Assembly: GCA_965243595.1 (NCBI GenBank)
Contig: OZ251569.1
Span: 1,994,381-2,058,380, forward strand
Length of the DNA: 64,000 nt
Direction of reading: 5' to 3'
Origin: Thermodesulfobacteriota bacterium
Lineage (GTDB): Bacteria; Desulfobacterota_D; UBA1144; Nemesobacterales; Nemesobacteraceae
Below the pieces are notes generated by a model, which saw nothing but the letters and a program-made list of their open reading frames with translations, made no database searches and was not told the DNA's origin. The position numbers and the translations under genes were made by a program. Below, piece by piece: positions 37,550 to 53,733 of this stretch (positions are counted from its first letter, which is position 1; each line of letters begins with the position of its first letter).

Positions 37550-38707
37550 TTAACCCCCGTAACGGTTTGCGTATTCTTCAAAGGTGAAGCTTTTCACTTT
37601 TTTCATTTCTCCGCCGTCCTCGACGCAGTAGACGTCGGGAAGATTGATGCCGTTGAACGTGTGCGCCTTGACCAGGGAGTAGCCCCCGACCCTTTCGAAA
37701 AGCACCCTGGAACCCACCCGCAGTTCTTCTCCGAAGCGGTACGCGCCGAAAACATCCCCGGCCAGGCAGCTGCTACCCGCCAGTATGTACTCGTTTTCAC
37801 AAGACGGGTCGTCTCCGAAAACATCGGGCCTGTACTGGTATTCGAAAACTTCGGGGAGATGGTTCACGGTAGTGTCCAGAACGGCTATGTCCTTGCCGTC
37901 CCTTCTGAAAAGGTCGACTACGGAAGAAACCAGGCATCCGCTGTCTCTGACCAGGAAAGCGCCGGGTTCGATCATTATCTCTTCGAAACCGTAATCGTCG
38001 TTGAGTTCGTCCGCGAGCTCGTGGAAAAGAGACAGGTTTTCGGATTCGTCGAAGAAGTAGCCGCCGCCCAGATTGATCCACCTGAACTTCCGGAGTTCGC
38101 CGGAAAGCTCGATCTTCAGTCTGGAGATGGTTTCCGCAAGCTGGGAAAAATCCTTGCTCTCGCAGTTCGTGTGCAGATGTATTCCCTCTATCTTTTCCGA
38201 GAAATCCGGGTCGGAGGAAACTTTGTCCCTGACCTGGTCCGCCGGAACGCCGAGCTTTGAGAACTCGCGGCACGGATTGTACCTGCGGTCCTCGACGAAA
38301 GAAACCCGGGGATTGACTCTTATTCCGTAGCTCTGCTCCCCGAGCCTGGATTCGAAACGGGAAAACTGCTCCAGAGAATTAAACGTCAGGTACTCGACCG
38401 CGCCTGAAATGTCCTCCCATTGCCCGTCCCTGATTCCGGGACTGACGAAGTGAATCTTCTTTCCGCCGCCGCAGGTCTTCTCCGCCAGCCTGGCTTCGAA
38501 AAGAGAGCTTGCGGAAAAACCGTCCAGAGAACCCATCTCCTCGAGAATCCTGCACAGGGGCAACGCCTTTAGCGAATAGAGAACCTTGCAGTTCGACCTG
38601 TCCCTTATCAGGCGAAGGGTCTCCAGTCTTTTTCTTATTTCGCCCAGATTGTAGACGAAGGCGGGCGTTGCGGAAGGCTCGCGATTCAGCGGGAAGGAGC
38701 TTTCCAT
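37550..38707 (-). CDS. nspC: PLP-dependent decarboxylase of the Orn/DAP/Arg decarboxylase fold, carboxynorspermidine-decarboxylase-like
   Basis: 385 aa; PLP-Lys region KVLYSLKALP, GIHLHTNCES (compare HxHT.CE of CANSDC), GGGYFFDE and EPGAFLV. Length and motif order fit NspC better than LysA. The start ATG overlaps the stop of the upstream HNH gene (TGATG). Confidence 0.55.
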   Translation of the reverse strand: MESSFPLNREPSATPAFVYNLGEIRKRLETLRLIRDRSNCKVLYSLKALPLCRILEEMGSLDGFSASSLFEARLAEKTCGGGKKIHFVSPGIRDGQWEDISGAVEYLTFNSLEQFSRFESRLGEQSYGIRVNPRVSFVEDRRYNPCREFSKLGVPADQVRDKVSSDPDFSEKIEGIHLHTNCESKDFSQLAETISRLKIELSGELRKFRWINLGGGYFFDESENLSLFHELADELNDDYGFEEIMIEPGAFLVRDSGCLVSSVVDLFRRDGKDIAVLDTTVNHLPEVFEYQYRPDVFGDDPSCENEYILAGSSCLAGDVFGAYRFGEELRVGSRVLFERVGGYSLVKAHTFNGINLPDVYCVEDGGEMKKVKSFTFEEYANRYGG

Positions 38708-39474
38708 CAGATAAGTCCTTTCTTTCTGAAATAGAATCTGGCGAACCCCGAAAATTCGCTGTGCCGGGAAATGTATTTGCTCAGACGCTTGCTAGCCCTG
38801 CCCTTGTTGTCTTTCAGACCTGCCCAAAGCTCATATTCCTCAAAATTTTCAAGTTTGCTCGCTCTTTCCTGCATCATATATCTATTGTTTATTCCCGTCA
38901 GTTTGCTGACTGTTTTTTGCCCGCGCTCGCATTTTCCAACGGCCTTCACCATCAATTTCTTGGATAGACCGTCTTCTGTACACTCCTCTATATCTTCTTC
39001 AAAAAGATCGTATTCTATAAATTCCTCTGGATTTTCTTCAATAGGGTTGATCAGAATTGGTTTTTCTTTCTCAAGGTCACAATCTTCCGGGTCAAGTCTC
39101 TCTGACCCGGGTTCCAGTGGAAATTTGGCCCCCTTTTTTATGTTGCATGTCTCGCAAGCCAAAAGCAGGTTCTCCCAACTGTAAGCAAGCCACCAGTAAC
39201 CCGGATGGTCTTCGACTTCTTCAACCTTCGTTTTGGGGCGAAAATGCTCTACGTGAGCTTCTCCCATGGGTAATCTCCTCTCGCAGTAACAGCATTTCCC
39301 ATGTTGAGGTTTGTAAAGCAACTCTTTGAACTCCCGCCACAATTTTCCGTTTTTAAAATCATCGGACTTCAATTTTCCACAGCTTGCCAATTCTCTAATT
39401 CTCTGGAGCTCTTTTTTTCTCCTCTCGGCTAAACCGGGATCTTCCGGGATTTCCCTGCACTCAATCTTTATCAT
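38707..39474 (-). CDS. ptuB: HNH endonuclease, Septu PtuB-like (copy 1)
   Basis: 255 aa with a His-Me finger: GKCCYCERRL...AHVEHFRPK...WENLLLACETCNIKKG (CxxC...H-EH...N...CxxC...N). Low GC (about 43%). It sits 3 nt downstream of a P-loop ATPase gene on the same strand. Confidence 0.7.
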   Translation of the reverse strand: MIKIECREIPEDPGLAERRKKELQRIRELASCGKLKSDDFKNGKLWREFKELLYKPQHGKCCYCERRLPMGEAHVEHFRPKTKVEEVEDHPGYWWLAYSWENLLLACETCNIKKGAKFPLEPGSERLDPEDCDLEKEKPILINPIEENPEEFIEYDLFEEDIEECTEDGLSKKLMVKAVGKCERGQKTVSKLTGINNRYMMQERASKLENFEEYELWAGLKDNKGRASKRLSKYISRHSEFSGFARFYFRKKGLI

Positions 39475-39477
39475 AAG

Positions 39478-40764
39478 TTAGGATTCGTCCGTTTGATTCT
39501 TAAGCAGTTCGATTAATTCGGCTCTTTGTATTTTTTCCTGTGCGTTATCCCACATAGGCAGGCCTTTCAGCTCTTCTTCAATTTCCTGGAGAAGTTCCTC
39601 TTCTTCAGGATCTCTTTCGTCCTTTTCCACAAGATATATTTCCGCGTACTCTTCCAGCCTCTTTTCTATGTAGTCGCTCCTTGTATCCGTAAGGCCAAAA
39701 ATCCTTGAGGTTAGTATCTGATCAGACCTGTAGCCTTTAAATTCCTTTCTGATGTCAAATTCCTCGACCTCGCTATGGCCGTTTACATAAGCAACCTTGA
39801 ATAGACGGGATTCGCATTCCACTAGGTCGGTCAGCCCCAAAGCGCATATGGGAGTATGCGTGCTGCATATGAACTGCATTTTCGGAAACTGGTCCGAAAG
39901 AGTTTTTATTATTTTTCTTTGCCACCTCGGGTGAAGATGCTGCTCCAGTTCATCAATGATGAAAATCCCCGAAAGATCCTTCAAGCTGAAATTCTCAAAC
40001 TTATGCACACGATTCCAACCCAGAAAATCCATAACAACAGAGGTCAGCGACTTGTATCCGTCGCTCATTGTGCCGAAGGCACCCTCTCCCCGACTAGTCT
40101 TGAAGTACAGCCCCGTTATTTTCAAAAAAATTTCATCTTCTTCTTCCATCATTAAGATTTTTTTCAAGGCATCCTGAAGGTTTTCCCATTCCTCGCCGGG
40201 GTGGCCTTGAATTCTCCTCGCACACAATTCCGCTTTCTGCAAAGGCCGTTCATATTTAAAAAGCGTGTACAAAGCGTCGACCAAGGTATATTCCTCATGA
40301 GACTCCGTCGTACCCGTCACAGACCTGCCCGCACCGTAAGCCACCGCGAAGATATCCTTTCTTTTCTTGAAATTTTTTATTCTACTCTTACCATTCTTCC
40401 CGTCACATTCACCAACGCAATCACCTTGGAAAACATCCTGATTTGAAATAGATTCTTTGTCGCCCTCCCGTTTTATGCGAGTTCTGATTGTATATTTCTT
40501 GCCGTTGGAATCCCCTAAACAAACCTCAATAGAGCCTTCCTTCTTCTTCCATCTCAAAAATCCATCCAGCTCCGACAGAAGAGAGGCCGCCCAGTCGTCG
40601 TCGCAAAGCCCCATGGCAAGACTTCTGAGAATCGTCGTTTTCCCCTGTCCGTTATCCCCCACAAGAAGAGACCAGTTTCTAGCACCGCCGTCAACAGACT
40701 CGAACGGGATTTCAACTTCCTTGAAACACTTAATGTTTACAAGGCGCAACTTAAGTATTTTCAT
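39478..40764 (-). CDS. ptuA: ABC/RecF-like AAA ATPase (AAA_15/AAA_21-type), Septu PtuA-like (copy 1)
   Basis: Walker A LLVGDNGQGKTTILRSL, Walker B/Q IIDELEQHLHP and H-loop ICSTHTP in a 428-aa protein with a long helical insert. The two-gene ATPase+HNH arrangement matches the Septu (PtuAB) architecture. Confidence 0.7.
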   Translation of the reverse strand: MKILKLRLVNIKCFKEVEIPFESVDGGARNWSLLVGDNGQGKTTILRSLAMGLCDDDWAASLLSELDGFLRWKKKEGSIEVCLGDSNGKKYTIRTRIKREGDKESISNQDVFQGDCVGECDGKNGKSRIKNFKKRKDIFAVAYGAGRSVTGTTESHEEYTLVDALYTLFKYERPLQKAELCARRIQGHPGEEWENLQDALKKILMMEEEDEIFLKITGLYFKTSRGEGAFGTMSDGYKSLTSVVMDFLGWNRVHKFENFSLKDLSGIFIIDELEQHLHPRWQRKIIKTLSDQFPKMQFICSTHTPICALGLTDLVECESRLFKVAYVNGHSEVEEFDIRKEFKGYRSDQILTSRIFGLTDTRSDYIEKRLEEYAEIYLVEKDERDPEEEELLQEIEEELKGLPMWDNAQEKIQRAELIELLKNQTDES

Positions 40765-41250
40765 TATTCGTCAGCCCTCCACCGGCATCACGATCTTTCC
40801 GAAAAACTGAAAAACCAGCAACTCTACTGAAAACCCGCGATGAGAAAAGATAGCAACAACCTCTAGTAACTCCTCGGGAAATTATACAGGAAAAACTCCC
40901 GAGGGCGTAATTCCCCCGCTAGCTTGTCGTCTGGATGTTTCGTCACACAGAAAACAGCATATATGTCGCATCAGGAAGAGAGCTTACCAACAATGATCAC
41001 TTGACTTCCACCTCCAGTCACATGCTTGCTCCACGCAATATTCAAGTCCACGCACTTGCCCTTAATGAAACGAATTTCCGCCTTTCACGTCAGCTTTACA
41101 AGGATGCGGAGTAGAAGTACATTCGCAAGAAACAACGCAACAGAATCTCTACAAGGTCAAAGAATTGAATACGACAATCTCACCCAAATTGTAAACAAAC
41201 GCAGGCAAGACCATAGTTCTCCATCTTAACGAGAAAAAATTTGCCAATTC

Positions 41251-41991
41251 TTAAAAACATCCCATCTTCTTGAAGTAGAATCTCGCGAATCCTGAAAACG
41301 GACTGCAGCTGGAAGTGTATTCATGCAGGCACCTCTCCGCCTCTGCCCTTAATTCATCGCCTTCGCCATTACTCAAGGACAACGCGCACATCCTATAATA
41401 TTTGATTTTCTTTGCCCTCTTGTTCATCACCTGCATGTCGTTTATTCCCGTGAGTTCATCGACCGTTCTTTTGCCTCGCTCGCATTTTCCGACGGCTTTG
41501 CCCATGAACCGCGGATTCTCCGTATCGTAATCTACAAACATCTCAGGGTCTTCTTCCAACGGATTTATCAGAATCGGTTTTTCTTCGTCAAGGGCGGAAT
41601 TTTCCTCGCAAGCTCTTTTCGACCCGGGTTTCAGAGGAAATTTCGATTTCTTGTATTCCTGATTGCATGTCTTGCAGGCTATTAGCAGGTTTTCCCAGCT
41701 ATAGGCAAGCCACCAGTAGCCTGTATGGTCTTCGGCTCCTTCAACTTCGGCCTTGGGTCGAAAATGCTCCACATCGCTTACCCTCTTTTCATCTTGTTTC
41801 CTCTCGCAGTAACAGCACTTGCCGTGTTGGGACCTGTGAAGGAATTTCTTGACCTTACGGTCGGACCATAAGGTCTCAAAGCGGTAAGGCTTCCCCGATT
41901 TTACCGCTTTTCTGATTTTTTGGAGCTCCTTTTCCCTCCTCCCGTCCAGTTTGTTGCCTTTCGGAGGTTTCCCGCGCTCAATCTTTATCAT
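41251..41991 (-). CDS. ptuB: HNH endonuclease, Septu PtuB-like (copy 2, diverged paralogue)
   Basis: 246 aa; GKCCYCERKQ...VEHFRPK...WENLLIACKTCNQEYK, same N- and C-terminal framework (MIKIE..., ...FSGFARFYFKK) as copy 1, but by eye only about 55-60% identical. Confidence 0.7.
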   Translation of the reverse strand: MIKIERGKPPKGNKLDGRREKELQKIRKAVKSGKPYRFETLWSDRKVKKFLHRSQHGKCCYCERKQDEKRVSDVEHFRPKAEVEGAEDHTGYWWLAYSWENLLIACKTCNQEYKKSKFPLKPGSKRACEENSALDEEKPILINPLEEDPEMFVDYDTENPRFMGKAVGKCERGKRTVDELTGINDMQVMNKRAKKIKYYRMCALSLSNGEGDELRAEAERCLHEYTSSCSPFSGFARFYFKKMGCF

Positions 41992-43262
41992 TGATAAGAC
42001 TTCTTCTCCTGCCTCTCAAACAACTCCATCAGCCTGTCCGTCCGTCTTTTGTCTTCTTCGTCATCCCACATAGGCAAGTATTTCAACTCCTCTTCAATTT
42101 CCATGAGACGTCGCTTTTCTTTGGAGTTTCTTTTGTCCTCTTCCTTAAGATATATTTTTCTGTATTCCTTCAGCTTGTCTTGAGCAGAAACGCTTCTCGT
42201 GCTTTCAAGATCAAAGATGTCCGAGGTCAATATCTGGTCGGTTCTGTAACACTTAAATTCCTCTCTCAGGTCAAATTCCTCAACCTCGCTATGATTGTTC
42301 ACATGAGCAACCTTGAAGAGACGGGATTCGCATTCCAGATCGCTGAGGCCCAAGGCGCAGATGGGAGTATGCGTACTGCATATGAACTGCACCTTCGGGA
42401 ACTGGTCCGAAAGGATTTTTACTATCTCTCTTTGCCACTTGGGGTGAAGATGCTGCTCAAGCTCGTCAATAAGGAGAATTCCCGAGATATTCCTCGAACT
42501 GAAATCCTCAAGCCTACGCATCAGATTCCAACACAGGAAGTCCACGACGACAGAGGTCAAGGACTTATATCCGTCGCTCATTGTATCGAAAACACCTTCC
42601 CCGCGACGAGTCTTGAAATACAACCCCGTTATTTCCAGAGAAATTTCATCTTCTTCTTCCATCATCAAGATTTTTTTCAGGGCATTCCACAGGTTTTCCC
42701 GTTCTTCCTCAGAATGGAATTCTATTCTTCTCGCGCCCAGTTCCGCATTCTGCAAGGACTGTTCATATCTAAAAAGAGTGTACAAAGCGTCAACCAGTCT
42801 GTACTCCTCGTAAGATTCCGTGCCCGACACGGACCTGCCCGCACCGTAAGCCACCGCAAAAATCCTGTTCCTCCTAAAATCTTTTGCTTCTTTATGCTTA
42901 CCCTTTTTATTGACGCAATCACCTTGAAAAACATCCTGAGAGATGGATTCGTTGTTGCCCTCCAGTTTTATGCGGGTTCGGACTGTATATTTTTTACCGT
43001 CGGAATCCGCCAGACAGACTTCAATAGACCCCTTGCTCGCACCCCATCCCAAAAATTCTCCGTGCAATTCCGACCGAAGAGCCGCCGCCCAGTCGTCGTC
43101 GCAAAGCCCCATGGCCAAGCTCCTGAGAATCGTCGTTTTCCCCTGTCCGTTATCCCCGACAAAGAGAGACCAGTTTCTGGCACTCCCGTCGACAGACTCA
43201 AATGGAATTTCAATGTCCTTGAAACACTTAATGTTCTCGAGTCTCAGTTTCAGTATCTTCAT
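41988..43262 (-). CDS. ptuA: ABC/RecF-like AAA ATPase, Septu PtuA-like (copy 2)
   Basis: 424 aa. The N-terminal about 70 aa are nearly identical to copy 1 (MKILKLRLENIKCFKDIEIPFESVDGSARNWSLFVGDNGQGKTTILRSLAMGLCDDDWAA). Walker B LIDELEQHLHP and H-loop CSTHTP are present, and the stop overlaps the HNH start (ATGA). Confidence 0.7.
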   Translation of the reverse strand: MKILKLRLENIKCFKDIEIPFESVDGSARNWSLFVGDNGQGKTTILRSLAMGLCDDDWAAALRSELHGEFLGWGASKGSIEVCLADSDGKKYTVRTRIKLEGNNESISQDVFQGDCVNKKGKHKEAKDFRRNRIFAVAYGAGRSVSGTESYEEYRLVDALYTLFRYEQSLQNAELGARRIEFHSEEERENLWNALKKILMMEEEDEISLEITGLYFKTRRGEGVFDTMSDGYKSLTSVVVDFLCWNLMRRLEDFSSRNISGILLIDELEQHLHPKWQREIVKILSDQFPKVQFICSTHTPICALGLSDLECESRLFKVAHVNNHSEVEEFDLREEFKCYRTDQILTSDIFDLESTRSVSAQDKLKEYRKIYLKEEDKRNSKEKRRLMEIEEELKYLPMWDDEEDKRRTDRLMELFERQEKKSYQ

Positions 43263-43582: not shown

Positions 43583-44155
43583 TCACTCCCCGCGGCCGAC
43601 CTCGAAATCCAGTATCTCGATTTCATACCTGATGCCGAGAATTTTGTTCCCGGACAGGTAAAAAGAGTAGAAGGGAACGGCGTTTCCGGGCTGCACGTCG
43701 AGGTTGGCCGACGCCGGCGCGTCCGCGAAAACCGCCAGGTCGTCCCCGCCCTTCCTTCCGAGTTTTCCTAGCAGGTAATCGACGTCGGCGTTTTTCAGGT
43801 CCCTCGCAGACAGCGTGTTGCCGCAGTAGAGCTCCTGGACTCCCAGACCGCGCCCCGAGACGTGAAAGACGCTTTTCAGCTTCACGTAGCTTACCGGGGC
43901 GTCTCCCTGGTTCATGACCTCGCCTCGCACCAGGAAAAGGTAGCCCTTCTTGGTGCTTATCCACCGGGACTCGGTGTTTCTCACGACAAGCTCGCGGGAA
44001 ACCTCGTCGCTTTTCCAAAACGGCGCGTCCGTGAAAAAGCCGAACCTGAGAAGAACGAAACCGGCCGCGACGACCGCCGCCGCCAAAAACAGCTTGGAGG
44101 GAAACCTTCTCCTTTTCTTCCTGGCTATGCCGTAGAATATCTTTTCCGCGTCCAT
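43583..44155 (-). CDS. hypothetical membrane-anchored protein (N-terminal TM helix plus about 150-aa extracytoplasmic domain; DUF3426-like?)
   Basis: KKRRRFPSKLFLAAAVVAAGFVLLRFGFF forms a signal-anchor followed by a beta-rich domain; the family assignment is tentative and from memory. Confidence 0.45.
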   Translation of the reverse strand: MDAEKIFYGIARKKRRRFPSKLFLAAAVVAAGFVLLRFGFFTDAPFWKSDEVSRELVVRNTESRWISTKKGYLFLVRGEVMNQGDAPVSYVKLKSVFHVSGRGLGVQELYCGNTLSARDLKNADVDYLLGKLGRKGGDDLAVFADAPASANLDVQPGNAVPFYSFYLSGNKILGIRYEIEILDFEVGRGE

Positions 44156-44318: not shown

Positions 44319-45155
44319 TTGAAAAGACGGCGGGAAATCATTTCGCGAAGCGTTGTAACGGTTTTTTTCTTCCTCGCGGCCGTGGCGACGGTTCCGGCGT
44401 CCTCGGGCGACGCGCTCGCCCAGAGCGGCCGTTTTTACGTCGGTGCCTCGGCCGATGTCGACTACCTCAGGGTCAAGTACGGAAAAACCGTCGCGAACGC
44501 CGACGTGCCCGCCCTTCCCGAAAGAGGCGAGACGTACCGCGACGGCGACTCCGCGGACAAGGCGGCGTTCGGCGGGGGTCTGCTCGCGGGCTACAGGCTC
44601 GGTTTCGGCGAAGGAGGCGGCTTTTACGTGAGCGCGGAGGTCGACGGGCAGGTCCACGCCCGCTCCGCCAGCGGAGCTTTCGCGGGAAAAGGAGAGTCGC
44701 AGGGACGCAACCAGCTCGGGGAGAGCTGGCCCGACGCGTGGAATCTCAAGAGAAGATACAGCTTCGGGGCGACCGTCAAGCTGGGCGGAGCCGCGGAGTT
44801 TCTGGGTTCCGGTTCCAGCGTCTACGTTCTAGGCGGCGCTCGGCGGCTCAAAACCAGGCTCAGTGTGAACTACTTCGGATGTCTCAATCCTCCGGACACG
44901 AGAGTTCCGTGCCGGACCGATCAGTTCGAGGCGGGCAGCTACTCCCGCGACCGCTCCTTCTGGGGATGGACCGCGGGAGCCGGAATGGAGAAGATGCTCG
45001 CCGACAGGGTCGGAATACGCGGCGAAATTCGCCACACCAGGTACGAGAAGCTGAAACGGACTCCCTTCAGCCTCGTTGACGGAAACCTAAACGTCCGCAC
45101 TTCGCTCGAAGCCAACGAAACCGACTTTTCGCTGAGCGCGGTCGTCTATTTCTAG
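44319..45155 (+). CDS. outer-membrane beta-barrel protein (OMP_b-brl/OmpW-like), copy 1
   Basis: Signal peptide VVTVFFFLAAVATVPASSGDALAQ; alternating amphipathic strands (FYVGASADVDYLRV, GFYVSAEVDG, YSFGATVKLG, VYVLGGARRL, WGWTAGAGME, GIRGEIRHTRYE); terminal beta-signal SAVVYF. Confidence 0.7.
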   Translation: MKRRREIISRSVVTVFFFLAAVATVPASSGDALAQSGRFYVGASADVDYLRVKYGKTVANADVPALPERGETYRDGDSADKAAFGGGLLAGYRLGFGEGGGFYVSAEVDGQVHARSASGAFAGKGESQGRNQLGESWPDAWNLKRRYSFGATVKLGGAAEFLGSGSSVYVLGGARRLKTRLSVNYFGCLNPPDTRVPCRTDQFEAGSYSRDRSFWGWTAGAGMEKMLADRVGIRGEIRHTRYEKLKRTPFSLVDGNLNVRTSLEANETDFSLSAVVYF

Positions 45156-45360: not shown

Positions 45361-46188
45361 ATGAACGAACCGCAGAAACTCATACGCCGAAATCTGAAAA
45401 CGGTTCTTGTATTTTTTCTAGTCGCGGCCGCGGGGCTCGGGTTTGCGACAAGCGACGCATTCGCTCAGGGCGGCGGTTTCTACGTCGGCTTCACGTCCGA
45501 CATCGACTACATCAGAGTCAAGCACAGAAAGTCCACCATAAACAACCCGAACACCGGCGCCCTGCACGAGGGCAAGACCTTCCACGACAGCGATTCGGCA
45601 AGCAGGGTCGCGTTCGGCGGTGGCCTGCTCGCGGGCTACAGGCTGAACCTCGGCGAAACCGGTGCCTTCTACGTGAGCGCGGAGCTCGACGGACAGCTCG
45701 ACGCCCGCTCCGTGAGCGGAACTCTTCCCGGACAGGGAGATACGCCCACCGATCACAGGCAGAGCGGCGCAAGCTGGCCGGACGATTGGAACCTCGAGAG
45801 AAAATACAGCTACGGAGCTACTATCAAGCTGGGCGGCACCGCGGAATTTCTGGGTTCCGGTTCCAGCGTCTACGTTCTAGGCGGCGCGCGCCGGGTCAGA
45901 ACCAGACTCAAGGTGGATTATCTCGGATGCCCCATGTTCGACAAACCGTGCACCAGCAGCGATCAATACAGAGCGGGAAGCTATTCGCAAAACGATTCCC
46001 TGTGGGGATGGACCGCGGGAGCCGGAGTGGAGAAGATGATCGCGGACAGGGTGGGAATACGCGGAGAAATACGCCACACCAGATACGAAAAAGTGAAGCG
46101 GCTCGATGTTCTCAGAACTCTCAGGGTCCCGGCCTCAAACGAGCACAACGAGACAGGCCTTTCGCTGGGTGCAGTGGTATACTTCTGA
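45361..46188 (+). CDS. outer-membrane beta-barrel protein, copy 2 (tandem paralogue)
   Basis: About 65% identical to copy 1 over the full length (…GGGFYVGFTSDIDYIRV…GSGSSVYVLGGARRVRTRL…WGWTAGAGVEKMIADRVGIRGEIRHTRYEK…GAVVYF). Confidence 0.7.
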   Translation: MNEPQKLIRRNLKTVLVFFLVAAAGLGFATSDAFAQGGGFYVGFTSDIDYIRVKHRKSTINNPNTGALHEGKTFHDSDSASRVAFGGGLLAGYRLNLGETGAFYVSAELDGQLDARSVSGTLPGQGDTPTDHRQSGASWPDDWNLERKYSYGATIKLGGTAEFLGSGSSVYVLGGARRVRTRLKVDYLGCPMFDKPCTSSDQYRAGSYSQNDSLWGWTAGAGVEKMIADRVGIRGEIRHTRYEKVKRLDVLRTLRVPASNEHNETGLSLGAVVYF

Positions 46189-46325: not shown

Positions 46326-46610
46326 TCAGAAGCTGTCCGGCCATCTGCGGGACATGTGCATGACCGCGAGGATCAGCATGCGGTTTCTCCTAACCGTGTA
46401 GGGCAGGATAAAAGGCAGAGCAGAAACCACAAGCTCGCGCGTGTTGGAAACGCGACCTGGCCTTCCGATCGACGGAAAGTCGGCCAAATCACCTGCCGCC
46501 TTCAAAAGAGTACTTCCAACTCTGGCAGCCACTACGGGATTTCGTTCGGCGATATAAAAGCGCACGTGTTCAAGATGCGCCAGAGCACGCCTCGTCCACA
46601 GAACTTTCAT
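46326..46610 (-). CDS. parE: type II toxin, ParE/RelE superfamily
   Basis: MKVLWTRRALAHLEHVRFYIAERNPVVAARVGSTLLKAAGDLADFPSIGRPGRV..RELVV...PYIL.Y.V......ILAVMH is the ParE consensus; it overlaps the upstream antitoxin gene by 4 nt. Confidence 0.8.
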   Translation of the reverse strand: MKVLWTRRALAHLEHVRFYIAERNPVVAARVGSTLLKAAGDLADFPSIGRPGRVSNTRELVVSALPFILPYTVRRNRMLILAVMHMSRRWPDSF

Positions 46611-46870
46611 TCGGGGATTTTGCCTTCGTCACTCGAACCCCACGATTTGAGCCACTCGCCAACATCGTCATGGTCAACCAGCCGTCCGGCTTTGACATCC
46701 TCAAGACCCTTATTGATTTCCTCAATTTGCCAAGCGTGCAGCTCAAGATATTCCCTCACGGCCTCTTTGATGTGCCACGATTTCGGCCTGTCGGTCGCTT
46801 TTGCAAGCTCCCCCAGCCGTCTCTCCATTTCCCTGTCCGTTCGGAACGAGACCATTGCTGAATCTGACAT
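46607..46870 (-). CDS. parD: ParD-type (CC2985-family RHH) antitoxin
   Basis: MSDSAMVSFRTDREMERRLGELAKATDRPKSWHIKEAVREYLELHAWQIEEINKGLEDVKAGRLVDHDDV matches the ParD/CC2985 antitoxin pattern (SFRTD...ATDRPKSW...REYL...W....I..G..D...GR). The start is taken at the internal MSDSAM rather than track ORF Met1. Confidence 0.75.
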   Translation of the reverse strand: MSDSAMVSFRTDREMERRLGELAKATDRPKSWHIKEAVREYLELHAWQIEEINKGLEDVKAGRLVDHDDVGEWLKSWGSSDEGKIPE

Positions 46871-47091
46871 TGAGACCTCGCTTTTTGTATTGCGCAGTAT
46901 GGCAATAGCATACAATATCGAATTTTACAAAACAAGATAAGAAACTAAGGACGAAAAACAGCGATTACGGTCGCCAATCAGCACCGCAAAAAACAGTCTA
47001 CATACAAAGATTCCAAGGACACGAACAGGTACATTGGTCCGAGGATTCCAAGCGGTTTGCGCTGTTATAGCTCACTGAAGTTCCAACAAGT

Positions 47092-53656: not shown

Positions 53657-53733
53657 GCGGGAATAGCTCAGTCGGCTAGAGCGTCTCCTTGCCAAGGAGA
53701 AGGTCGCGGGTTCGAATCCCGTTTCCCGCTCCA
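53657..53733 (+). tRNA. tRNA-Gly (anticodon GCC)
   Basis: gcgggaatagctcagtcggctagagcgtctccttgccaaggagaaggtcgcgggttcgaatcccgtttcccgctcca folds with a 7-bp acceptor stem gcgggaa/ttcccgc, D-arm gctc/gagc, anticodon stem tctcc/ggaga with loop ttGCCaa, T-arm gcggg-ttcgaat-cccgt, and an encoded CCA. Confidence 0.9.

What the first reader, a model, noticed from the sequence alone, without database searches (positions are those of the whole stretch)
38707..43262. Asymmetric divergence of the duplicated pairs: ATPases conserved, HNH effectors diverged
By eye the two ATPases are about 90% identical over the first 70 residues and clearly alignable throughout. The two HNH proteins keep the catalytic scaffold but differ extensively (MIKIECREIPEDPGLAERRKKELQRIRELASCGKL... 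versus MIKIERGKPPKGNKLDGRREKELQKIRKAVKSGKP...). Faster evolution of the nuclease than of the sensor/ATPase suggests diversifying selection on the effector, for example escape from phage inhibitors or altered target preference, rather than neutral decay of a duplicate.
Basis: seen in the sequence. Interest (0 to 1): 0.5.

Follow-up and report, generated by a model that had tools for sequence, protein, structure and literature searches.

The report
Tandem Septu defence modules with swapped effector cassettes
Two neighbouring copies of a known anti-phage system (Septu: an ATPase plus an HNH nuclease) share a related ATPase body, but the ATPase tail that docks the nuclease and the nuclease itself have separate ancestry and were exchanged by recombination, so the nuclease has not simply evolved faster.

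Summary
Both pairs are Septu PtuA/PtuB modules in a low-GC island. PtuA copies are 72% identical (87-92% over the first 60-70 residues). PtuB copies are 50-54% identical.

The proposed cause does not hold.
- Pairwise dN/dS is the same for both genes (0.18 versus 0.18-0.20), and synonymous divergence is also higher in PtuB.
- Relative-rate tests show no acceleration of either PtuB.
- The change in divergence lies inside ptuA, near codon 336, not at the gene boundary. PtuA residues 1-340 are 77% identical; residues 341-428 are 52%, like PtuB.
- In trees, the PtuA C-terminus follows PtuB, not the PtuA N-terminus. B2 has 81-83% relatives in single-module alleles at the same chromosomal site in sister strains.
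- In solved Septu and retron complexes, the PtuA C-terminal helices are the PtuB docking site.

So the diverged unit is a "PtuA docking tail plus PtuB" cassette. Homologous recombination exchanges it at a polymorphic defence hotspot. Gene conversion between the tandem ptuA copies also occurs.

Neutral decay is rejected, because all four genes are intact and constrained. The B1-type lineage has a raised ω (about 0.65). My site test for positive selection on it was not specific, because a housekeeping control also scored.

The parts
42276..43262 (-). ptuA-up (A2), ATPase body, about codons 1-330: ABC/AAA_15/AAA_21 ATPase with Walker A GDNGQGKT, Walker B ILLIDE and H-loop STHT.
   Evidence: This part is 77% identical to the matching part of A1 and follows the locus-specific (A-like) tree at 99% bootstrap.
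41988..42275 (-). ptuA-up (A2), linker plus three-helix C-terminal domain. This is the PtuB-docking tail and belongs to the 'up' cassette.
   Evidence: It is 52% identical to the A1 tail. In trees it groups with P0069 and P0074 at 97-99%, as B2 does. Boundary by alignment to A1 codon ~336.
41251..41991 (-). ptuB-up (B2), HNH nuclease (TIGR02646/PtuB family). Its start overlaps the ptuA-up stop by 4 nt.
   Evidence: It is 81-83% identical to the PtuB of single-module alleles L013 and L015, but only 54% to B1.
40765..41250 (-). Spacer between the two modules. It contains a terminator-like hairpin at 40900-40918 followed by a TATAAT-like hexamer, so the modules are probably separate transcription units.
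   Evidence: It does not align with the region upstream of A2. It is 89-98% conserved in the sister contigs L001 and L003.
39760..40764 (-). ptuA-dn (A1), ATPase body, about codons 1-335: Walker A GDNGQGKT, Walker B IFIIDE and H-loop STHT.
   Evidence: Foldseek's best hits for the AlphaFold model are solved PtuA chains 9nnb_D and 8eea_D.
39478..39759 (-). ptuA-dn (A1), linker plus C-terminal three-helix domain (helices 364-377, 386-399, 408-427). This is the PtuB-docking tail and belongs to the 'dn' cassette.
   Evidence: model. Searches align it to the Eco7/Ec78 PtuA linker and CTD. It follows the B-like tree (dn clade 80-88%). Recombination breakpoints against L003 map to codons ~270-336.
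38707..39474 (-). ptuB-dn (B1), HNH nuclease with a helical C-terminal domain. Its stop overlaps the start of the Orn/DAP decarboxylase gene by 1 nt.
   Evidence: The AlphaFold model has pLDDT 88.8, and its best PDB hits are PtuB chains 9vhl_F and 9e90_B. It belongs to a separate PtuB lineage supported at 100% bootstrap.
37550..38707 (-). Orn/DAP/Arg decarboxylase-family housekeeping gene. It is the conserved right-hand flank where nucleotide identity to sister strains recovers, so it serves as the homology arm for cassette exchange.
   Evidence: (synteny).

Best explanation
The region holds two complete Septu (PtuA ATPase / PtuB HNH nuclease) modules in tandem, at a polymorphic defence hotspot next to a conserved decarboxylase-DUF3326-recJ block. 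Each module is a mosaic of two parts that are inherited separately. The first part is the PtuA ATPase body, roughly the first 270-340 residues. The second part is a cassette made of the PtuA linker and three-helix C-terminal tail plus the whole of PtuB. In solved PtuAB complexes those two pieces form the physical docking interface.

The two ATPase bodies in this window are sister lineages within this locus. They arose by an old duplication, by gene conversion between the tandem copies, or both. The two cassettes belong to anciently separated lineages that circulate among strains. They are swapped by homologous recombination whose left breakpoints fall in the 3' third of ptuA (mapped at codons ~267-386), most of them in or beside the highly conserved Walker B / H-loop stretch. 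The right breakpoints fall in the conserved downstream DNA. This explains why the ATPases look conserved and the HNH proteins diverged: the two parts have different coalescence depths, not different substitution rates.

Shown here: the mosaic structure, the incongruent trees, the breakpoints, equal dN/dS, equal relative rates, and one gene-conversion tract.

Inferred: that distinct tail/PtuB pairs keep the two co-resident systems from cross-assembling and diversify effector properties, and that cassette diversity is maintained by phage-driven selection.
For: Identity and family: PADLOC PtuA/PtuB hits at 1e-42 to 1e-62; fold matches to solved PtuA and PtuB.

Synteny: the two-module array sits at the same site in L001-L006. 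Single-module alleles sit at the same site in L013, L014 and L015. L013's housekeeping genes are 94-97% identical to the window's, yet its PtuA is only 70% and 58% identical to A2 and A1.

Trees: all syntenic PtuA except L006up form one clade (100%). PtuB splits into lineages that each group at 100% with PtuBs of other alleles. PtuA 1-270 keeps the A-like topology (99%). PtuA 271-428 and 341-428 adopt the B-like topology (97-99% and 80-88%).

Segment statistics: A1/A2 residues 1-340 are 77% identical (pN 0.12, pS 0.49). Residues 341-428 are 52% (pN 0.265, pS 0.73). PtuB is 54% (pN 0.265-0.27, pS 0.67-0.69).

Change point: between the window's own two modules it lies at ptuA codon ~336.

Recombination seen directly: W and L003 are ~95% identical across the locus except from ptuA-dn codons ~270-336 to the ptuB-dn stop, where identity is 55-75%. 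L014 and L015 are 100% identical up to codon ~316-333 and ~30% different after it. W-up versus L013 shows the reverse pattern, from codon ~267. L006-dn changes at codon ~386 (0 of 200 permutations in every case).

Gene conversion: in L003, ptuA-up codons ~121-140 are 100% identical in nucleotides to its own ptuA-dn, where the window's copies are 53% identical.

No rate effect: dN/dS is equal; Tajima counts are equal; family-wide, the PtuA N-part and the PtuB HNH part diverge equally (0.38 versus 0.39).

Interface: PtuB's C-terminal domain is sandwiched by the C-terminal extensions of a PtuA dimer in a nine-helix bundle (PMC12819146, PMC12673091). The A1 model ends in three helices at 364-427.
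Against: Most comparison loci are short-read metagenome scaffolds from one project. Strain-chimeric assembly at conserved stretches could imitate some breakpoints and the L003 conversion tract.

Trees are neighbour-joining on 88-270 columns. No maximum-likelihood trees or formal recombination tests (GARD, PHI) could be run.

Synonymous divergence between the cassettes is near saturation, so depth estimates are rough. The four-fold-site difference is only marginal (p = 0.052).

Coupling of the PtuA tail and PtuB is not absolute. W and L001 have identical PtuA tails but differ in the last ~45-95 PtuB residues.

Across unrelated genomes the coupling is only moderately stronger than coupling to the N-part (partial r 0.59 versus 0.48).

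The order of events, duplication then cassette swap versus two acquisitions then homogenisation, is not resolved.

No functional data exist for these proteins.
Confidence: 0.75

Rival explanations
1. One duplication copied the whole ptuA-ptuB pair. Afterwards the HNH nuclease accumulated amino-acid changes faster than the ATPase under diversifying selection, for example to escape phage inhibitors or to change targets.
For: The pair is an outlier for PtuB divergence given its PtuA divergence. Within the B1-type lineage, gene-wide ω is 0.63-0.66 against 0.11-0.34 for the other genes. M2a beats M1a (LRT 13.7-15.6, p ~0.001), with candidate sites at B1 residues 16, 206, 210 and 240. Close comparisons among L004, L005 and L006 give ω of 0.6-0.86.
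Against: dN/dS for the paralog comparison is equal (0.177 versus 0.176), and synonymous divergence is also higher in PtuB. Relative-rate tests show no acceleration. The change point lies inside ptuA at codon ~336. The PtuA tail follows the PtuB tree. B2 is 81-83% identical to PtuBs whose PtuA is only 70% identical to A2. The B2-type lineage shows ω of 0.25 and no M2a signal. The M2a test also scored on a housekeeping control (DUF3326, four taxa, LRT 15.1), so it is not specific here.
Confidence: 0.08
2. Ordinary rate difference. PtuB is simply under weaker purifying selection than PtuA across the whole family, so any pair of Septu modules shows a more diverged nuclease.
For: Family-wide, PtuB is somewhat more divergent than PtuA (mean 0.44 versus 0.38; ratio 1.1-1.25 at comparable depth). 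Its C-terminal domain is the most variable part (0.53).
Against: The PtuA N-part and the PtuB HNH part diverge equally across the family (0.38 versus 0.39). Against the L006 upstream module, the dN ratio of B to A is ~1.0. The window pair lies 2.3 sd above the family expectation and beyond its maximum. A rate difference cannot produce strongly supported conflicting topologies.
Confidence: 0.05
3. Two unrelated Septu modules were acquired independently. Their ptuA 5' portions were later partly homogenised by gene conversion between the tandem copies (concerted evolution), while the tails and ptuB were too diverged, or were selected, to stay distinct. This shares the mosaic conclusion with the best explanation but reverses the order of events.
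For: A conversion tract between tandem ptuA copies is seen directly in L003. L006's downstream ptuA has an up-type body (97% identical to the L004 ptuA-up N-part) joined to a dn-type tail, as expected from crossover between tandem copies. The upstream non-coding regions of the two modules do not align.
Against: The up and dn subclades of the PtuA body are each conserved across all host groups, and their synonymous distance is ~0.8. So there has been no recent or continuing whole-body homogenisation. No long tract of near-identity exists between A1 and A2 in the window. Cassette replacement in otherwise near-identical backgrounds is seen directly (W versus L003; L014 versus L015).
Confidence: 0.3
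4. Artefact. The apparent mosaics arise from chimeric metagenome assemblies that switch between co-existing strains, or between the tandem copies, at conserved stretches of ptuA.
For: L001, L003-L005, L007 and L013-L015 are scaffolds from one short-read metagenome project. The breakpoints coincide with the most conserved DNA, which is where assemblers switch haplotypes.
Against: The window's own modules show the step at codon ~336 without reference to any other contig. Mosaic combinations also occur on contigs whose names suggest long-read assembly: L002 (hifiasm-style 'ptg' name, 138 kb) and L006. A complete 2.08-Mb chromosome (L008) carries the same locus. The same cassette lineages recur in many independent samples with consistent trees. 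Additional swap cases come from unrelated contigs (P0025 and P0047).
Confidence: 0.05

Closest known systems
Septu anti-phage system (PtuA ABC-type ATPase plus PtuB HNH nuclease; E. coli PtuAB structures 8EE4, 8EE7, 8EEA)
   Same: Two-gene ATPase/HNH operon. Strong PADLOC PtuA and PtuB profile hits. Walker A, Walker B, H-loop and HNH/zinc-finger motifs are present. Predicted folds match solved PtuA and PtuB best. PtuA has a C-terminal three-helix tail, as in solved complexes.
   Different: Only 16-20% sequence identity to the solved proteins. Two modules lie in tandem rather than one. The modules are mosaics in which the PtuA tail plus PtuB is exchanged as a unit between alleles, a property I found no description of in three literature searches. 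The host is an uncultured lineage; the closest GTDB record is labelled Thermodesulfobacteriota.
Type I-A retrons (Ec78/Eco7, Ec83), which use PtuAB as effector
   Same: Homologous PtuA and PtuB with the same docking geometry, the PtuA C-terminal extension binding the PtuB C-terminal domain. Published trees already note that PtuB is 'scattered' while PtuA clusters cleanly (PMC12819146). That is the same kind of A/B incongruence at a much broader scale.
   Different: There is no reverse transcriptase gene and no retron ncRNA in or near the island (-20 gene tables). PtuA lacks the retron-specific N-terminal extension: it is 424-428 aa against ~550 aa. NCBIfam retron-PtuA and retron-PtuB equivalog scores are far below their cut-offs.
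C-terminal toxin / immunity cassette displacement in polymorphic toxin systems (CdiA-CT/CdiI, Rhs-CT/RhsI). This comparison is from general knowledge and was not tested here.
   Same: A conserved N-terminal body is joined to a variable C-terminal piece that is co-inherited with the adjacent partner gene. Exchange happens by homologous recombination at a conserved junction. Many cassette types segregate among close strains.
   Different: The proteins, function and junction motif are unrelated. Here the co-transferred partner is the effector nuclease itself, not an immunity protein. The variable tail is a docking domain, not a toxin.

Membership tests
Septu (PtuAB) | PtuA: ABC/SMC-like P-loop ATPase (AAA_15/AAA_21) with Walker A, Walker B and H-loop. 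| tested here: met
   Pfam AAA_15, AAA_21 and AAA_23 are above their cut-offs. PADLOC PtuA hits at 2.5e-60 and 1.6e-62. Motifs GDNGQGKT, IFIIDE/ILLIDE and STHT are present. Foldseek's top hits are solved PtuA chains at E ~1e-15.
Septu (PtuAB) | PtuB: HNH nuclease of the TIGR02646 type with a zinc-finger cysteine pair and a catalytic His. | tested here: met
   Pfam HNH: B1 scores 23.5 bits, above the 21.4 cut-off; B2 scores 20.5, just below it. PADLOC PtuB hits at 3e-42 and 7e-54. TIGR02646: 54.5 bits for B2 (cut-off 52.15) and 50.5 for B1. CCYCE...EHFRPK and W.NL..AC..CN motifs are present. Fold hits to PtuB chains 9vhl_F and 9e90_B.
Septu (PtuAB) | ptuA immediately followed by ptuB on the same strand, as one operon. 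| tested here: met
   A2 and B2 overlap by 4 nt. A1 and B1 are separated by 3 nt. The same arrangement occurs in all related loci.
Septu (PtuAB) | PtuA C-terminal helical extension that docks the PtuB C-terminal domain. | tested here: inconclusive
   The predicted PtuA1 ends in three helices (364-427; pLDDT only 42-81) and PtuB1 has C-terminal helices at 183-251. Sequence alignment places A1 residues 364-428 opposite the Eco7 CTD. The contact itself was not modelled or measured.
Septu (PtuAB) | Protection against phage infection. | not testable with these tools
The context is a defence hotspot, with AbiE, pAgo and toxin-antitoxin neighbours in related loci.
Type I-A retron (Ec78/Ec83-like) | Reverse transcriptase gene and msr/msd ncRNA next to ptuAB. 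| tested here: not met
   No RT domain appears in any neighbouring called gene in the syntenic loci. No Rfam family lies in the island; the only hit in the window is a tRNA at 53657-53730. PADLOC retron I-A profiles score far below the Septu profiles.
Type I-A retron (Ec78/Ec83-like) | Retron-type PtuA with an N-terminal extension (~550 aa), reaching the NCBIfam equivalog score. | tested here: not met
   PtuA is 424-428 aa. NF041760 scores 115 bits against a cut-off of 500, and NF041761 scores 50-55 against 150.
Simple tandem gene duplicates (whole-module paralogs of one age) | Both genes of the two modules coalesce at the same node, giving congruent trees and equal synonymous depth. | tested here: not met
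   The PtuA N-part supports a sister relationship for the two modules at 99-100%. For PtuB and the PtuA C-part that support is 0%, with 97-100% for conflicting clades. pS is 0.49 for PtuA 1-340 against 0.67-0.73 for the PtuA tail and PtuB.

The most novel reading that the evidence does not exclude
The PtuA C-terminal tail and PtuB form orthogonal 'plug and socket' pairs. Two Septu systems with related ATPase bodies could then coexist in one cell without cross-assembly. The conserved Walker B / H-loop stretch of ptuA would act as a recombination handle, so effector cassettes could be exchanged between strains and between tandem copies. That would be a defence-system counterpart of CT/immunity cassette displacement in polymorphic toxins, maintained by frequency-dependent selection from phage anti-Septu factors.
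Probability: 0.3. Interest if true: 0.65.

Novelty: new variant of a known kind. Interest (0 to 1): 0.45.

Why it matters
Septu is a well-studied defence system, but how its diversity arises has not been described. This locus gives a concrete answer: the exchanged unit is the structurally defined docking interface (PtuA tail) together with the nuclease, not the gene.

That has three consequences. First, gene-level comparisons of 'sensor' against 'effector' conservation can mislead when breakpoints lie inside genes. Second, it predicts which PtuA and PtuB chimeras should assemble, which is useful for engineering and for testing cross-talk between co-resident systems. Third, it offers a natural allelic series at one chromosomal site for studying how phage pressure maintains effector diversity: at least four cassette lineages, one or two modules per strain, and also decayed copies.

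For the scan itself, the lesson is that asymmetric divergence of duplicated defence pairs needs a recombination check before selection is invoked.

Tried and rejected
- Aligning the two upstream non-coding regions to define the duplication unit: they do not align.
- NG86 dS for the deep comparison: near saturation, so I added four-fold sites. That result is only marginal (p = 0.052).
- Scan of GTDB genomes with the PtuA alignment: only one close relative (L008) and four distant or fragmentary hits. The comparative work therefore rests on metagenome contigs found by exact protein look-up.
- Biopython bootstrap: timed out. I replaced it with a numpy implementation.
- Long-branch attraction as an explanation for B1's basal position: rejected. 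Relative-rate counts are equal, and the independent PtuA C-terminal segment gives the same groupings.
- Site-model test for positive selection (my own M1a/M2a code): significant for the B1 lineage, but also for a housekeeping control in one configuration. I do not rely on it.
- Retron association: no RT gene and no ncRNA.
- Literature searches for Septu cassette exchange or mosaicism: nothing specific. 'Septu' also matches 'septum', which added noise.
- One search was an empty script run by mistake.

Full report
WHAT IS THERE. The interval contains four intact minus-strand genes: ptuA-up (A2, 41988-43262), ptuB-up (B2, 41251-41991), ptuA-dn (A1, 39478-40764) and ptuB-dn (B1, 38707-39474). A 486-bp spacer separates the two pairs. 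The island is about 45% G+C in a window that is otherwise about 60%. Pfam finds AAA_15, AAA_21 and AAA_23 in the large proteins and HNH in the small ones. PADLOC assigns both pairs to Septu PtuA/PtuB with E-values of 1e-42 to 1e-62. AlphaFold models of A1 and B1 match solved PtuA chains (9nnb_D, 8eea_D) and PtuB chains (9vhl_F, 9e90_B) best. No reverse transcriptase gene or retron RNA is present, so these are stand-alone Septu modules and not type I-A retrons. A terminator-like hairpin at 40900-40918 in the spacer suggests two transcription units.

THE OBSERVATION. It is correct. A1 and A2 are 71-72% identical (92% over residues 1-60 and 87% over the first 70). B1 and B2 are 50-54% identical. 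ATPase and HNH motifs are intact in all four proteins. Across 44 paired PtuA/PtuB modules from other contigs, pairs whose PtuA divergence is 0.25-0.30 have a PtuB divergence of 0.33 +/- 0.056 (maximum 0.445). This pair has 0.278 and 0.458, so the asymmetry is unusually large.

WHY THE RATE EXPLANATION FAILS.
- A codon-aware comparison gives the same dN/dS for both gene pairs (0.177 and 0.176). dN and dS are both about twofold higher in ptuB. At four-fold sites within conserved residues, ptuA differs at 0.38 and ptuB at 0.55.
- The same pattern holds for the tandem pairs in three of the four sister contigs that carry two complete modules (L001, L002, L003: dN ratios 1.9-2.2, dS ratios 1.9-2.3, ω about 0.16-0.24). 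In L006 it is weaker (dN ratio 1.34, dS ratio 1.16).
- Tajima relative-rate counts for B1 against B2 with four distant outgroups are equal: 19/17, 23/24, 21/22 and 25/20.
- Family-wide, the PtuA N-terminal part and the PtuB HNH part are equally divergent (0.38 and 0.39). Against the L006 upstream module, the dN ratio of B to A is about 1.0.

PtuB is therefore not intrinsically faster, and neither PtuB copy accelerated.

THE LOCUS IN RELATIVES. Exact-protein look-ups recovered the same chromosomal site, flanked by an Orn/DAP decarboxylase gene, DUF3326 and recJ, in other metagenome assemblies.
- Six contigs carry two modules (L001-L006). In L001 the upstream ptuB is frameshifted. In L004 and L005 it is reduced to a remnant of about 70 codons.
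- Three contigs carry a single module (L013, L014, L015).
- Two have deletions that remove the downstream module and the decarboxylase (L007, L008).
- Neighbouring defence genes differ between contigs: AbiE in several, and a long pAgo-like protein in L006.
- Host genes show these are close relatives. Housekeeping proteins are 84-97% identical to the window's. Septu content nevertheless differs sharply. L013's host genes are 94-97% identical to the window's, but it has one module whose PtuA is 70% and 58% identical to A2 and A1, and whose PtuB is 81% identical to B2.

INCONGRUENT HISTORIES. In bootstrapped neighbour-joining trees, all syntenic PtuA proteins except L006-up form one clade (100%), with up and dn subclades as sisters. 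PtuB proteins never form that clade (0%). Instead they form four groups, each at 100%:
- B2-type sequences group with the PtuBs of single-module alleles L013 and L015.
- The downstream PtuBs of L002 and L003 group with those of L014 and P0058.
- B1-type sequences form a separate lineage.
- L006-up groups with P0026 and P0070.

Splitting PtuA resolves the conflict. Residues 1-270 keep the PtuA-like topology (99%). Residues 271-428 or 341-428 take the PtuB-like topology (97-99% for the up group with P0069 and P0074; 80-88% for the dn group including L006-dn). In the window itself, PtuA residues 1-340 are 77% identical (pN 0.12, pS 0.49). Residues 341-428 are 52% identical (pN 0.265, pS 0.73), indistinguishable from PtuB (54%; pN 0.265-0.27; pS 0.67-0.69). 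A maximum chi-square scan along the two modules places the single best change point at ptuA codon ~336, not at the gene boundary (0 of 200 permutations reach it).

RECOMBINATION SEEN DIRECTLY.
- W and L003 are about 95% identical in nucleotides from the outer-membrane protein genes through ptuA-up, ptuB-up, the spacer and the first two-thirds of ptuA-dn. Identity then falls to 55-75% until the ptuB-dn stop and recovers at the first base of the decarboxylase gene.
- L014 and L015 are 100% identical up to ptuA codon ~316-333 and about 30% different afterwards.
- W-up against L013 shows the reverse pattern, from codon ~267. L006-dn switches at codon ~386.
- An unrelated pair, P0025 and P0047, shows the same signature.
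- Finer mosaics exist. The last ~45 residues of L001's ptuB-dn are of the L003 type.
- Gene conversion between the tandem copies is visible in L003. Codons of about 121-140 of ptuA-up are 100% identical to its own ptuA-dn, where the window's copies are 53% identical, while the flanks remain 97-98% like the window's ptuA-up.
- L006's downstream ptuA has an up-type body, 97% identical to the L004 ptuA-up N-part, joined to a dn-type tail. That is what a crossover between tandem copies would produce.

WHY THIS UNIT. [quoted passage not shown] The authors describe these elements as conserved in stand-alone Septu PtuAB, and deleting them reduces defence or toxicity (PMC12819146, PMC12673091). HMM alignment puts A1 residues of about 364-428 opposite the Eco7 PtuA CTD. 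The A1 model ends in three helices at 364-377, 386-399 and 408-427. The co-inherited unit is therefore the docking tail plus its partner. My inference is that keeping the two together preserves a matched interface when cassettes move, and that different tail/PtuB pairs in one array would limit cross-assembly. The breakpoints at codons ~267-336 lie in or beside the most conserved stretch of ptuA (residues 271-340, 86% identical between A1 and A2, containing Walker B and the H-loop). That stretch is a natural substrate for homologous recombination. The L006-dn breakpoint at codon ~386 lies further downstream, inside the tail.

IS THERE SELECTION ON THE EFFECTOR? Within cassette lineages, where saturation is not a problem, my own implementation of codon models gave these gene-wide ω values:
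- B2-type PtuB: 0.25
- PtuA bodies: 0.18 and 0.34
- Flanking housekeeping genes: 0.11 and 0.16
- B1-type PtuB: 0.63-0.66

M2a fits the B1-type lineage better than M1a (LRT 13.7-15.6), with candidate sites at residues 16, 206, 210 and 240. However, DUF3326 from the same four genomes gave an LRT of 15.1, so the site test is not specific in these small, recombining data sets. The raised ω in the B1 lineage is real. It may reflect relaxed constraint, positive selection or both. It does not explain the B1/B2 gap, which predates these lineages.

CAVEATS. Most comparison contigs are short-read metagenome scaffolds from one project, so chimeric assembly could mimic some junctions. Three things argue against this. 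The window's own step at codon ~336 needs no other contig. Mosaics also occur on contigs with long-read-style names (L002, L006) and the locus on a complete chromosome (L008). Cassette lineages recur across many samples. Trees are distance-based. No ML trees or formal recombination tests could be run. The order of events is unresolved: duplication followed by cassette replacement, or two acquisitions followed by homogenisation of the ATPase bodies.

VERDICT. The system is a bona fide Septu. What appears to be new is a modular mode of evolution, exchange of a 'PtuA docking tail plus PtuB' cassette at a polymorphic hotspot, with tandem modules sharing related ATPase bodies.

Noticed in passing
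L007:5931-6605 and L008:5001-6534: Two independent assemblies, one of them a complete 2.08-Mb chromosome (OZ242012.1), carry deletions that remove the downstream Septu module, the Orn/DAP decarboxylase gene and most of DUF3326. In L007 a truncated ptuB (about 166 codons) is fused in frame to the last ~55 codons of DUF3326. In L008 ptuB is gone entirely. The putative polyamine genes therefore seem dispensable in this lineage.
   Followed up: partly
L001:6767-7509; L004:7528-8001; L005:3183-3660: The upstream ptuB is frameshifted in L001 and reduced to a remnant of about 70 codons in L004 and L005. The upstream ptuA stays intact and constrained (ω 0.20; its tail is still up-type, 75-78% identical to the W and L013 tails). 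An orphan PtuA retained without its nuclease is unexplained.
   Followed up: partly
window 38707 (also L001:10067, L002:10025, L013:9009): The ptuB-dn stop codon overlaps the start codon of the Orn/DAP decarboxylase gene by one base in every locus. The low-GC defence cassette therefore abuts a housekeeping gene with no spacer, and nucleotide identity to sister strains recovers at that base.
   Followed up: partly
L006:1906-5268; L002:459-3663; L004:2706-5788; L014:3-3064; L015:3401-6486: The left flank of the Septu array varies between relatives and carries other defence genes. L006 has a 1120-aa SLFN_AlbA_2 plus Piwi (long pAgo-like) protein. Several contigs have AbiEi/AbiEii pairs. The site behaves as a defence-island hotspot.
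   Followed up: no
window 44319-45155 and 45361-46188 (+): Two tandem paralogous outer-membrane beta-barrel genes (OMP_b-brl, 278 and 275 aa) lie just beyond the Septu array. This is a second tandem duplication in the window, and it is conserved in L001, L003, L007 and L013.
   Followed up: no
window 46326-46915 (-): A small RelB/RHH antitoxin gene (102 aa) and a ParE-like toxin gene (94 aa) with overlapping reading frames. The toxin gene is called in L007 and L013 but not in L001 or L003, where only the antitoxin-like gene is listed.
   Followed up: no
window 43583-44155 (-): A conserved 190-aa ORF with no Pfam or NCBIfam match lies directly upstream of ptuA-up on the same strand. It is present in all relatives that have the OMP-type left flank (L001, L003, L007, L013). 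Its relation to Septu is unknown.
   Followed up: partly
L011:4998-9290: A contig labelled Rhodothermales carries a ~70-residue PtuA fragment, a remnant of the decarboxylase gene and a frameshifted DUF3326 gene in the same order. This is a decayed copy of the locus in a record labelled as a different phylum, which suggests either horizontal transfer or mis-binning.
   Followed up: no
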